Below are positions 42,201 through 45,200 of a DNA stretch of 64,000 nt, in pieces. The stretch lies in the NCBI RefSeq assembly GCF_013167455.1, contig NZ_CP038328.1. One strand, 5' to 3'. Position 1 is the first letter of the stretch. Each line of letters begins with the position of its first letter. The DNA is from Escherichia coli O157:H7. GTDB lineage: Bacteria > Pseudomonadota > Gammaproteobacteria > Enterobacterales > Enterobacteriaceae. The position numbers are program-made.

Positions 42201-45200
42201 GCACATGCCAGGCGACAGGGGCAGAAGTGACGAGTGAATCTGTATTTAACATTCTTAATTCCACGGGGGCAGCAACAGATAAAAGTTATTTATCGTTAAA
42301 TCCAGATAAGTATCCTAATTATCGTCTTCTGATTCACTCAGCCAAATTACAAAATGAAATAAAGAGCCACTATACCAAAGACGAAATTCAAGGATTGCTA
42401 ACATTAACAGAAAACACACGAAAGTTAACGTTGACGGAGAAACCCTGGGGAACGTTTATTCTTGCTTCTACTTTCGAAGATGACAAAACAGCGGCAGAAA
42501 CCCACTATGATGCTGTCTGGCTGAGGGATAGTTTATGGGGCTATATGGCATTAGTATCAGACCAGGGAAATAGTGTAGCCGCAAAAAAGGTTCTGCTCAC
42601 CCTGTGGGATTATATGTCTACGCCCGACCAGATTAAGCGGATGCAGGACATCATTAGCAACCCAAAACGACTGGATGGTATTCCCGGGCAAATGAATGCT
42701 GTGCATATTTGACAGCAACTCCCCCGTGATGGCAGATGTGCAGGAAGAAGGCAAGCCGCAGCTGTGGAACTATAAACAAAATGATGCGTTAGGTCTTTAT
42801 CTTGATCTCCTTATACAAGCAATCAATACTGGTACTATTAACGCTGAAGATTGGCAAAAAGGTGACCGACTAAAATCGGTTGCGCTGCTGATTGCTTATC
42901 TGGATAAAGCCAATTTCTATGTTATGGAAGATTCCGGAGCGTGGGAGGAAGATGCCCGATTAAACACATCTTCCGTTGCACTGGTGACCTCTGGACTGGA
43001 ACGTTTGTCAAACCTACTCTCGAAGAAAGACTCTGTTTTTGTCTCTGATTTACTACGCGAAGCTAAAGTCAATGAACTGGATGAAACTCTTTCAACAACG
43101 AGGTTGAACCACCTCATAGATAAAGGTTATGAAAGAATAACGTTACAGCTTGATTTAGGGGGAGAATCCCCAGGTTATCTGGAAAAAGATAAACATTACA
43201 GAGAAGCCGATGCGGCTTTACTTAATGTTATTTATCCTGCAAATCTTTCAAAGATAAACACCAGAAGAAAAGAGCAAGTTCTAAAAATAGTTAAAAAACT
43301 AGCAGGTCCGTATGGTATAAAAAGATACGAGAAGGATAATTATCAGTCGGCAAATTTTTGGTTCAATGATATTAAAACCGATACCGATCAAAATTCGCAT
43401 GCAAAAAGAGAAAAGAGCTTCATTCCATCAACAGAAGCAGAATGGTTTTTTGACTCATGGTATGCAAAATCAGCAGCAATTGTTTATAAAGAATCAAGAA
43501 AAGAAGAGTATTTGAATGACTCAGTACAATTTATGAATAGATCATTGGCCCAAATAACAGGCGAGAATATGATTGGTGCAAATGGCAGGAGCGTACCAGA
43601 AATGGCACTTCCCGAAAGCTATAACTATATCCACAAGTCGGGAACTTTGCATGAAGCGCCAAGCCCTATCATTCCGCTAAATTGGTCGAAAGCTTCAATG
43701 ACTCTCATGTTGAAAGAGATGTCCAACCTTATCAATGATGAGGGAATTAAATAATTTTCATAATGAGGCGGTCCTGGATTAAAAGGACCGCTCAAAGAGA
43801 AATCGAAAGGGGAGGTAAAAGTGATCAATAAATTACTGTTAGCTTACCTGATAGGTCTGGTTGTGACATCGACTTTAATATTTATCTTCTCGGAAGAAAA
43901 AGTAACATATCGGTTGTTTGCTGCAATAATTACAGGTTTAACCTGGCCGCTTAGTCTCATTCCTTCCATTATAAGTCTCATGATTCGTAAATCCGACTAA
44001 CAAGAAAATTATATGATCGATTAAGAAAAATAGAATCGAACAAGAGAATAAAATATATGCGGGGAGTAACAAAACACTCGCAGTGTGTTAATGAAGAACT
44101 AACAAATATGATTTGTATTGAAAATAGTTACCAAACAAGTGTTATAAGTAATACGAGGTGTGTTTAAGTAAAACATATCAACAGTTACAAATCTGTATAT
44201 GGACAGGATGACGTACTAGTGTAAGTGGCTGATAGCTATTCGCTCATAACAAAATCATTATTTTATAAATAGTAATCATCACTTTTTAATCATGTTTTTA
44301 TAGCAAGTTTATGGAGAATGAGAATATGGAATAAGGAGATGAAACATGATTGAAGAAGGGCTGTTACTTCCAATGAATGTTTTGCTTCAAGGACAGAAGT
44401 TAACCCTACTGGACCCTGAAATGTGGTTCTTACGGGGAAATGAAAACAAGGATGTAACCCTTGTTATTACGATTGGTAATAACCATCAAAAATTAATGGT
44501 AGTGGAAGATATATTACTGCTCATTGACCGAAGCCAAATTGAGGTAACTGCAGGGAAAGTAATTTATCATCCACTTCGCATTGATATCCTGAGTAAATTA
44601 TTAGCTTTTATAGATGAATCAACGGGGAGTGTGGAAAGGGAACACCATGAATTGTTTGCTGATGCCTTGCCCTTTGCATCAGAAGTTGTGCTATTCAGTA
44701 AAGTTGCAAGTGAAGCCTGGTTTTTAGCCACTTATCTGAGCAGCGATAATATTAATGAAATCCTGTTTCAGCATCTAAGAAAAACAGAATGCTATAAACT
44801 GGTTCGTTATTTATTATCGCAATCGCTCATACAGACTTCACTCTATGATCTTGGTGAGCTTTACGGCGTATCGTATTCACATTTTCGCCGTTTATGTAGT
44901 TATGCATTGGGTGGTAAAGTTAAAACGGAATTATGTGGCTGGAGAGTTGCCAGAGCCGTGTTGGAAATCATTGAAGGAAACAGTGATATGACAACTATTG
45001 CGCATAAATATGGTTACTCGTCCTCATCACACTTTTCAGCCGAAGTAAAAAGCCGGTTAGGAAAAACACCGAGAGAACTATGTAAAAAGTTATGAAAATA
45101 AAATTACGCATTACTATTATATTAATTTCAGTCTTATGCATTTTTAATGGATTATTGACTCCTGGTGCATATGCCGCAGCAGCGAATGGATACGTAGCAA

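What the first reader, a model, noticed from the sequence alone, without database searches (positions are those of the whole stretch)
43821..44000. Unannotated 59-codon membrane-protein ORF with a strong ribosome-binding site
A GTG start 6 nt after AAGGGGAGG opens a 59-aa ORF with two hydrophobic segments, between the GH15-like gene and eivF. It is absent from the ORF track because it is below 60 aa.
Basis: seen in the sequence. Interest (0 to 1): 0.35.

Follow-up and report, generated by a model that had tools for sequence, protein, structure and literature searches.

The report
Known GhoT/OrtT-family small membrane toxin gene
The 59-codon ORF is a real, conserved gene, but it is already annotated (ECs3735 of E. 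coli O157:H7 Sakai, a 'GhoT/OrtT family toxin'); it is a small two-helix inner-membrane protein with no antitoxin gene beside it, so the finding is ordinary apart from a recurring pairing with the neighbouring glycosidase gene.

Summary
Window 43821-44000 (+) is a GTG-initiated 59-codon ORF. AAGGGGAGG lies 5 nt upstream (not 6). The protein has two hydrophobic segments and sits between the GH15 gene and eivF in the ETT2 island of E. coli O157:H7.

"Unannotated" is wrong. RefSeq annotates exactly this CDS as WP_001301699.1, "GhoT/OrtT family toxin". A 2014 ETT2 review lists it as ECs3735 (180 bp, ydcX homolog, inner membrane protein).

Evidence that it is a real gene:
- Pfam PF10753 matches at E=1.2e-11, 45.1 bits against a cut-off of 22.1.
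- It is 39% identical to K-12 GhoT.
- pN/pS within E. coli is about 0.05.
- Orthologs keep the reading frame in E. albertii (60%) and Yersinia enterocolitica (about 45%).

No GhoS antitoxin gene is in the window, so it resembles the orphan toxin OrtT. It is accessory: 1325 of 5426 complete E. coli genomes carry it, and a common 8.7-kb ETT2 deletion removes it.

One possibly new point: every member of its subclade with enough flanking sequence lies beside an exported GH15 glycosidase gene, with or without a T3SS nearby. Toxicity is inferred from homology and was not tested.

Verdict: already known, low interest.

The parts
43821..44000 (+). CDS of the 59-aa GhoT/OrtT-family small inner-membrane protein (ECs3735; WP_001301699.1), GTG start, TAA stop
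   Evidence: ORF. RefSeq CDS at identical coordinates. Pfam PF10753 at 45.1 bits, E=1.2e-11. 39% identity to K-12 GhoT. pN/pS about 0.05. AF2 helical hairpin, pLDDT 90.4.
43807..43815 (+). Shine-Dalgarno sequence AAGGGGAGG, 5 nt before the GTG
   Evidence: Read directly. The GGAGG core is kept in lineages that carry a 1-nt indel at 43809. It is unpaired in the predicted mRNA fold.
43764..43794 (+). GC-rich stem-loop (8-bp core GCGGUCCU/AGGACCGC plus a 3-bp extension) between the GH15 stop codon and the small ORF. No U-tract follows it. Its role is unresolved: partial terminator, mRNA 3'-end stabiliser for GH15, or 5'-UTR element.
   Evidence: RNA fold -19.5 kcal/mol, z = -3.1. Strong hairpins (z = -4.9 and -4.3) of unrelated sequence sit at the same place in E. 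albertii and one Yersinia locus; the other two loci show a stem-loop in folds that are not significant overall (z about -0.5). The simple terminator scan did not call it.
42107..43754 (+). Upstream partner gene: exported GH15 glycoside hydrolase (pkgA; ECs3737 + ECs3736). In this window it is split into two ORFs (42107-42712 and 42696-43754) by a 5-nt deletion after 42706.
   Evidence: ORFs. Intact 536-aa CDS in O157:H7 PV15-279. 5-nt indel located. Pfam PF00723. Lengths match Sakai ECs3736 (1059 bp) and ECs3737 (606 bp).
44001..44345 (.). AT-rich 345-nt spacer between the small ORF and eivF. It presumably holds the 3' end of the small-gene transcript and the eivF promoter. No RNA family or convincing signal was found.
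   Evidence: No Rfam match. Promoter-like matches are at chance level, 4 found against 4.8 expected. 28 variable sites in 345 nt among five E. coli lineages, against 10 in 180 nt in the CDS.

Best explanation
Window 43821-44000 encodes ECs3735, a third and accessory E. coli paralog of the GhoT/OrtT family (Pfam PF10753).

What it is: a 59-residue, two-transmembrane-helix inner-membrane protein. Lys4 and the C-terminal Arg56-Lys57 suggest that both termini face the cytoplasm. This topology is inferred from the positive-inside rule.

How it probably works: like its characterised homologs GhoT and OrtT, it most likely inserts into the inner membrane and, when produced above a threshold, damages the membrane, lowers ATP and slows or stops growth. 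This step is inferred from homology and was not shown here.

What keeps it in check: no GhoS-type antitoxin gene accompanies it, so in gene organisation it is an orphan like OrtT. Its level is presumably held low by transcription and translation control. Candidate elements are the GTG start, the AT-rich horizontally acquired island, and a stem-loop directly upstream.

Genomic setting: it forms a conserved gene pair with the upstream exported GH15 glycosidase. That pair, not the type III secretion genes, is the unit that recurs in other Enterobacterales.
For: Shown here:
- Identity of the locus: the region is 100% identical to E. coli O157:H7, and the CDS is annotated 'GhoT/OrtT family toxin'. 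The ETT2 review lists ECs3735 as a ydcX homolog.
- Family: PF10753 scores 45.1 bits against a cut-off of 22.1. BLASTP to GhoT gives 39% identity, E=2e-12, and to OrtT E=2e-6. The family-wide motif G-x-T-W-P-[LM]-S, together with Y9, G12 and R31, is conserved.
- Fold: helical hairpin, pLDDT 90.4. The hydropathy profile parallels those of GhoT and OrtT.
- Purifying selection: among five E. coli lineages, 7 synonymous and 3 conservative changes (L19F, A35T, I36V); pN/pS = 0.008/0.139.
- Frame kept across species: E. albertii at 60% and Y. enterocolitica at about 45% identity.
- No GhoS: tblastn of K-12 GhoS against the 64-kb window gives a best E of 1.2. The flanking genes are GH15 and an AraC-type regulator.
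- GH15 linkage: found in E. albertii, in three Yersinia-type loci and in one locus with the gene order reversed.

From the literature:
- GhoT and OrtT are 57-aa membrane-damaging proteins that lower ATP. OrtT has no antitoxin (PMC4344625).
Against: - Toxicity of this paralog has never been tested, as far as the searchable literature shows.
- It is divergent from the characterised members: 39% identity to GhoT and 26% to OrtT.
- The residue aligned with Phe38, whose F38R change abolishes GhoT toxicity and reduces OrtT toxicity, is Ile36 here.
- It has a charged C-terminal tail (RKSD) that GhoT and OrtT lack.
- Many small hydrophobic proteins are toxic only when artificially over-expressed, so 'toxin' may not describe its natural role.
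- The conserved GH15 pairing hints at a different, cooperative function.
- No promoter or transcript evidence was obtained.
Confidence: 0.8

Rival explanations
1. It is not a toxin in nature. It is a dedicated membrane partner of the exported GH15 glycosidase, for example a holin-like release factor, membrane anchor or regulator. The two genes would form a mobile two-gene functional cassette.
For: - All six subclade members with enough flanking sequence lie within 1 kb of a GH15 gene of about 540 aa, in different genomic contexts: ETT2 in E. coli and E. albertii, IS-flanked in Yersinia, and reversed gene order in L024.
- Identities of the two proteins co-vary between species: 75.7/60.3% for E. 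coli against E. albertii, and about 59/40% for E. coli against Yersinia.
- The GH15-linked proteins group together in a neighbour-joining tree and share the motifs YR and SL[IF]P[AS].
- The GH15 proteins carry signal peptides or lipoboxes.
Against: - GH15 is broken in this very window (5-nt deletion), in strain 50579417 and in K-12, while the small ORF stays intact where it is present.
- GH15 homologs exist without any GhoT-like neighbour: L020 at 65% identity, L021/L022, and Commensalibacter.
- An exported enzyme with its own signal peptide needs no holin, and GH15 enzymes are not known as peptidoglycan hydrolases (background knowledge, not tested here).
- The PHROG holin match is insignificant (E=0.33).
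- Clade support is only 57% bootstrap.
- Linkage may only reflect co-transfer.
Confidence: 0.15
2. It is the toxin of a type V system that works in trans: the core-genome GhoS endoribonuclease, encoded elsewhere, cleaves its mRNA.
For: - ghoST is present in 5318 of 5426 complete E. coli genomes, so GhoS is available in nearly all hosts.
- ECs3735 is closer to GhoT (39%) than to OrtT (26%).
Against: - No GhoS gene is adjacent.
- OrtT, which is 63% identical to GhoT, is nevertheless an orphan with no antitoxin in the genome (PMC4344625).
- The ECs3735 mRNA sequence is unrelated to ghoT at the nucleotide level.
- It carries 3 GCU (MqsR) sites, whereas ghoT has none.
Confidence: 0.07
3. It is a component or regulator of the ETT2 type III secretion apparatus.
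For: - It lies inside the island defined as ETT2 (ECs3703-ECs3737), directly upstream of eivF.
- The common ETT2 deletion removes it together with eivF through eivJ.
- GH15 or GhoT-like genes recur near SPI-1-type genes in L020 and L024.
Against: - The Yersinia GH15/GhoT-like pairs have no T3SS genes in the flanks that were read.
- The pair is much more divergent between E. coli and E. albertii (75.7% and 60%) than EivF and SctC (88%).
- The family is a stand-alone or GhoS-linked small-toxin family in other genera.
Confidence: 0.03
4. It is a chance ORF or a decaying pseudogene that is not translated.
For: - ETT2 is known for mutational attrition; neighbouring genes, including GH15 here, are broken.
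- Some truncated or frameshifted alleles exist in databases, e.g. P0066, P0069 and P0071-P0079.
- No expression data were found.
Against: - The Pfam match is far above threshold.
- pN/pS is about 0.05.
- The frame is intact and annotated in all listed rows of the 1325 genomes.
- Orthologs at 45-60% identity keep the length and the motif.
- The Shine-Dalgarno sequence is strong and conserved.
Confidence: 0.02

Closest known systems
OrtT (YdcX), orphan toxin of E. coli K-12 (Pfam PF10753)
   Same: Same Pfam family, similar size (57 against 59 aa) and the same two-TM architecture. It shares the conserved G-x-TWP-x-S motif. No adjacent antitoxin gene. It contains GCU sites. The Sakai annotation already named ydcX as the homolog.
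   Different: Only about 26% identical. OrtT is core (5415 of 5426 genomes) whereas ECs3735 is accessory (1325 of 5426). OrtT sits next to ydcY, and ECs3735 sits next to a GH15 gene. ECs3735 has Ile in place of Phe38, a C-terminal RKSD tail and a GTG start.
GhoT of the GhoST type V toxin-antitoxin system (E. coli K-12)
   Same: Closest characterised sequence relative: 39% identity, E=2e-12. Same family, same hydropathy profile, similarly AT-rich gene.
   Different: ghoT is preceded by ghoS (PF11080), and no GhoS is in the window. ghoT mRNA lacks GCU sites, and ECs3735 has three. Phe38 is not conserved. A member paired with GhoS was seen elsewhere, in Pluralibacter, but in a different clade.
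E. albertii and Yersinia enterocolitica GhoT/OrtT-family genes downstream of GH15
   Same: Same subclade (motifs YR and SL[IF]P[AS]). Same position directly downstream of an exported GH15 gene, with a GC-rich hairpin in between. E. albertii also shares the C-terminal tail and the ETT2 context.
   Different: 60% and about 45% identity. The Yersinia versions are 57 aa without the charged tail and are not next to a T3SS. All are uncharacterised.

Membership tests
GhoT/OrtT family (Pfam PF10753, Toxin_GhoT_OrtT) | Match to the family HMM above the curated gathering score | tested here: met
   45.1 bits against a cut-off of 22.1, E=1.2e-11, residues 4-46 on profile positions 3-46 of 55. For comparison, K-12 GhoT scores 90.4 bits and OrtT 96.9 bits.
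GhoT/OrtT family (Pfam PF10753, Toxin_GhoT_OrtT) | Hydrophobic protein of about 57 aa with two transmembrane helices joined by a short polar loop | tested here: met
   59 aa, GRAVY 1.13, with two hydrophobic blocks either side of SEEK. AF2 gives helices 2-23 and 28-58 with a kink at TWPLS, pLDDT 90.4.
GhoT/OrtT family (Pfam PF10753, Toxin_GhoT_OrtT) | Conserved sequence motif G-x-T-W-P-[LM]-S in helix 2, plus Tyr, Gly and Arg at the positions of Y9, G12 and R31 | tested here: met
   T41, W42 and P43 are invariant. Y9, G12, R31, G39, L44, S45 and L46 are at least 90% conserved in a 20-sequence alignment that includes GhoT and OrtT.
GhoT/OrtT family (Pfam PF10753, Toxin_GhoT_OrtT) | Phe38, whose F38R change abolishes GhoT toxicity and reduces OrtT toxicity | tested here: not met
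   The aligned residue is Ile36 (Val in other E. coli alleles). The column varies across the family, so this does not exclude membership. It does weaken direct transfer of the toxicity data (PMC4344625).
GhoT/OrtT family (Pfam PF10753, Toxin_GhoT_OrtT) | Growth inhibition, membrane damage and ATP depletion when the protein is produced | not testable with these tools
   Needs expression experiments. No paper on this paralog was found.
Type V toxin-antitoxin system (GhoST) | Adjacent gene for a GhoS endoribonuclease antitoxin (PF11080) | tested here: not met
   tblastn of K-12 GhoS against the whole window gives a best E of 1.2. The neighbours are GH15 (PF00723) and AraC-type EivF. A true GhoS neighbour is seen in Pluralibacter loci L018 and L019.
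Type V toxin-antitoxin system (GhoST) | Toxin mRNA free of MqsR (GCU) sites, so that it is enriched when MqsR is active | tested here: not met
   ECs3735 has 3 GCT sites, ghoT 0 and ortT 2.
Orphan toxin (OrtT-like organisation) | No recognisable antitoxin gene or RNA at the locus | tested here: inconclusive
   No GhoS, no Rfam family and no PADLOC hit. An unrecognised antisense RNA or protein partner cannot be excluded by these searches.
Phage-type holin | Significant similarity to a holin family, and pairing with a cell-wall hydrolase | tested here: not met
   The best PHROG holin match has E=0.33. The partner enzyme is GH15 with its own export signal, not a muramidase.

The most novel reading that the evidence does not exclude
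The GhoT/OrtT-like proteins with the motifs YR and SL[IF]P[AS] (E. coli ECs3735, E. albertii, Yersinia) form a distinct subclade that travels as a two-gene cassette with an exported GH15 glycosidase. In this reading the small protein has a function tied to that enzyme. It might control release of the enzyme, or act as an addiction or stabilising element for the cassette. It would not be a free-standing stress toxin.
Probability: 0.15. Interest if true: 0.4.

Novelty: already known. Interest (0 to 1): 0.15.

Why it matters
It matters little as a discovery. The gene is in public annotation (ECs3735; WP_001301699.1) and belongs to a described toxin family.

It does have modest value in three ways:
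- It shows that the first stage's 60-aa ORF cut-off hides annotated small genes.
- This third GhoT/OrtT paralog has apparently never been tested. It is accessory, present in about 24% of complete E. coli genomes including O157:H7.
- Its recurring pairing with an exported GH15 gene in Escherichia and Yersinia is, as far as the searched literature shows, undescribed. It could show whether GhoT-like proteins have roles other than stress-induced growth arrest.

Tried and rejected
- GhoS-type antitoxin in the window: tblastn gave only noise.
- Known RNA elements or antisense sRNA families: Rfam at E<=1 found only tRNA-Gly and a spurious snoRNA hit.
- Promoter and terminator scan: promoter-like sites were at chance level. 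The upstream hairpin was not called as a terminator, and a weak minus-strand terminator-like site inside the ORF (43945-43933) was judged unconvincing.
- Holin or defence-system identity: PHROGs and PADLOC gave nothing significant. NCBIfam has no specific model hit.
- Genome-contig scan with the subclade profile: it returned one locus, an E. coli-like contig in a 'Collinsella' MAG. It was therefore no use for distribution.
- The 78-aa form seen in other lineages: rejected as the true product. It depends on a 1-nt indel and would translate the hairpin region, while the SD and GTG are conserved and PGAP keeps 59 aa.
- GH15 as obligate partner or antitoxin: rejected, because GH15 is broken here while the small ORF is intact, and GH15 homologs occur without the small gene.
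- Literature search for experiments on ECs3735 or Z4199: only the table entry in the 2014 review turned up.

Full report
**1. The observation**

- Window 43821-44000 (+) is an ORF of 59 codons. It starts with GTG and ends with TAA.
- AAGGGGAGG occupies 43807-43815, so the spacer to the GTG is 5 nt and not 6.
- An in-frame TGA at 43764 makes this GTG the first possible start codon in this strain.
- The product is MINKLLLAYLIGLVVTSTLIFIFSEEKVTYRLFAAIITGLTWPLSLIPSIISLMIRKSD. It has two hydrophobic blocks separated by SEEK.
- It lies between the GH15 gene (stop at 43754) and eivF (44346-45095).
- ORF length alone is not significant. The same 6 kb holds 52 ORFs of at least 30 aa, including an overlapping antisense ORF of 67 aa. 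Significance has to come from homology and conservation, and it does (sections 3 and 4).

**2. Where the window comes from, and whether the ORF is unannotated**

- The region is 100% identical to E. coli O157:H7 genomes.
- In RefSeq the same 180-nt CDS is annotated as WP_001301699.1, "GhoT/OrtT family toxin". It is flanked by "glycoside hydrolase family 15 protein" and the AraC-type regulator EivF, then sctC (eivG) and the rest of ETT2. tRNA-Gly (glyU) and actS (ygeR) lie upstream.
- A search with the ORF alone finds it in 1325 of 5426 complete E. coli genomes. Every listed row carries that annotation.
- The 2014 ETT2 review lists "ECs3735, 180 bp, homolog ydcX, inner membrane protein" in its table of Sakai ORFs. 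It also lists ECs3736/pkgA (1059 bp) and ECs3737 (606 bp) (PMC3977695). Those lengths equal the window ORFs 42696-43754 and 42107-42712.
- The gene is therefore annotated and its family assignment is public.

**3. Family membership**

- Pfam PF10753 (Toxin_GhoT_OrtT) matches at 45.1 bits against a gathering score of 22.1, E=1.2e-11.
- BLASTP gives 39% identity to K-12 GhoT (E=2e-12) and about 26% to OrtT (E=2e-6).
- In a 20-sequence alignment the T-W-P triplet is invariant. Y9, G12, R31, G39, L44, S45 and L46 are at least 90% conserved.
- An AlphaFold2 model built on that alignment has mean pLDDT 90.4. Its helices are 2-23, 28-40 and 46-58, which gives a helical hairpin with a kink at the TWPLS motif.
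- Differences from the characterised members:
  - Ile36 stands where GhoT and OrtT have Phe38. The F38R change abolishes GhoT toxicity and reduces OrtT toxicity (PMC4344625).
  - It has a charged C-terminal tail, RKSD.
  - It starts with GTG.
  - It has three GCU (MqsR) sites, against none in ghoT.

**4. Conservation**

- Among five E. coli lineages, up to 4.7% divergent over the 701-bp region, the CDS has 10 variable sites. Seven are synonymous and three are conservative replacements (L19F, A35T, I36V).
- pN/pS is 0.008/0.139 between the O157 allele and the commonest other allele.
- The downstream intergenic region has 28 variable sites in 345 nt.
- A 1-nt indel in the G-run at 43809 puts an upstream ATG (43763) in frame in other lineages. 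That explains the 78-aa database entries. The SD and GTG are conserved, and PGAP keeps the 59-aa form.
- An exhaustive HMMER search of 1.84 billion representatives found few relatives above threshold (13 at E<=1e-3). Beyond the E. coli cluster the best are a 59-aa protein at 61% identity and 57-aa proteins at 44-45%. A profile search names their sources as E. albertii and Yersinia enterocolitica.

**5. Antitoxin and organisation**

- K-12 ghoT is preceded by ghoS.
- No GhoS-like sequence exists anywhere in the 64-kb window; the best tblastn E is 1.2.
- No Rfam family, PADLOC model or significant PHROG family matches.
- In organisation the gene resembles the orphan OrtT. An unrecognised antisense RNA cannot be excluded.
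- ortT occurs in 5415 of 5426 genomes and ghoST in 5318 of 5426, so both are core. ECs3735 is accessory at 24%.
- K-12 lacks ECs3735 because of an IS2 insertion and a deletion.
- About 1,700 genomes carry a deletion joining window 43767 to 52495. It removes ECs3735 and eivF through part of eivJ.

**6. The one possibly new point: linkage to GH15**

- Every subclade member with enough flanking sequence sits next to an exported GH15 gene of about 540 aa:
  - E. albertii (L010): GH15, small gene, eivF, sctC and so on.
  - Three Yersinia-type loci (L011, L012, L014): no T3SS genes, and IS elements or unrelated genes around them.
  - L024: the order is reversed, with the small gene 857 nt upstream of GH15 and invH nearby.
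  - L025 is too short to judge.
- Family members in Serratia stand alone. One in Pluralibacter has GhoS downstream.
- Identities of the two proteins co-vary: 75.7/60.3% for E. coli against E. albertii, and about 59/40% for E. coli against Yersinia. EivF and SctC are 88% identical between the two Escherichia species.
- The GH15-linked proteins share the motifs YR and SL[IF]P[AS]. They form one neighbour-joining clade with modest support (57% bootstrap).
- A GC-rich hairpin of unrelated sequence sits between the GH15 stop and the small ORF. In E. coli it is 43764-43794, -19.5 kcal/mol, z = -3.1. It is clearly significant in E. albertii (z = -4.9) and one Yersinia locus (z = -4.3). The folds of the other two Yersinia-type intergenic regions also contain a stem-loop but are not significant overall (z about -0.5).
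- Against an obligate functional tie:
  - GH15 is broken by a 5-nt deletion in this window and is split in another strain, yet the small ORF is intact in both.
  - GH15 homologs at 54-65% identity occur with no GhoT-like neighbour.

**7. Mechanism**

- Shown: a conserved, selected small gene for a two-helix membrane protein of the GhoT/OrtT family, with a strong SD and no GhoS partner.
- Inferred from the family literature: insertion into the inner membrane. At elevated levels this would cause membrane damage, ATP loss and growth arrest.
- Inferred from charge distribution: both termini face the cytoplasm.
- Unknown: the promoter, the role of the hairpin, the inducing conditions, and any neutralising factor.

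**8. Verdict**

The finding is a correct observation of an already annotated gene from a described family. Interest is low. The residual novelty is the GH15 pairing and the fact that this paralog is experimentally uncharacterised.

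Noticed in passing
window 42107-43754 (indel after 42706): The GH15 glycosidase gene (pkgA; ECs3737 + ECs3736) is split into two ORFs by a 5-nt deletion (ATCCG). 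In O157:H7 strain PV15-279 it is an intact 536-aa CDS.
   Followed up: yes
window 43768-52494: A deletion of about 8.7 kb, present in roughly 1,700 complete E. coli genomes, joins 43767 to 52495 inside eivJ. Position 43767 lies within the hairpin downstream of GH15. The deletion removes ECs3735 and eivF, G, E, A, C and I. The two BLAST segments overlap by 9 nt at the junction, which suggests microhomology.
   Followed up: partly
window 43763-43821 (indel at 43809): In other E. coli lineages (e.g. strain 042) a 1-nt indel in the G-run puts ATG 43763 in frame. This produces 78-aa database entries whose N-terminal extension would be encoded by the hairpin region. The SD and GTG are unchanged, and PGAP keeps 59 aa.
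   Followed up: yes
window 43764-43794; L010:2053-2090; L012:2245-2271; L011 and L014 intergenic regions: A GC-rich stem-loop of unrelated sequence follows the GH15 stop codon at the orthologous loci. It is clearly significant in E. coli, E. albertii and L012, but the folds of L011 and L014 are not significant overall. The E. coli version has no U-tract and ends only about 12 nt before the Shine-Dalgarno sequence, leaving no room for a separate promoter after it.
   Followed up: partly
L020:1-6647; L024:2537-5823: GH15 homologs recur beside SPI-1-type T3SS genes outside Escherichia. L020 has GH15 (65% identity) divergent from prgH-orgA on a contig with ParA/SopB-like genes and a SopD-like effector, and no GhoT-like gene. 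L024 has invH, a GhoT-like gene and GH15 among IS66 fragments.
   Followed up: partly
L010 versus window 42107-46795: Between E. coli and E. albertii, the GH15 protein (75.7%) and the small protein (60%) are much more divergent than the adjacent EivF and SctC (88%). This suggests faster evolution or a separate history for the pair.
   Followed up: no
L013 (JAIJJM010000090.1): The only hit in the species-representative genome collection is a contig labelled 'MAG: Collinsella sp.' that encodes a 97%-identical copy. This is probably E. coli contamination of the bin.
   Followed up: no
window 41842-41912: tRNA-Gly (glyU; Rfam 71.6 bits) marks the island boundary just upstream of the GH15 gene. actS/ygeR lies at 40984-41763.
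   Followed up: yes
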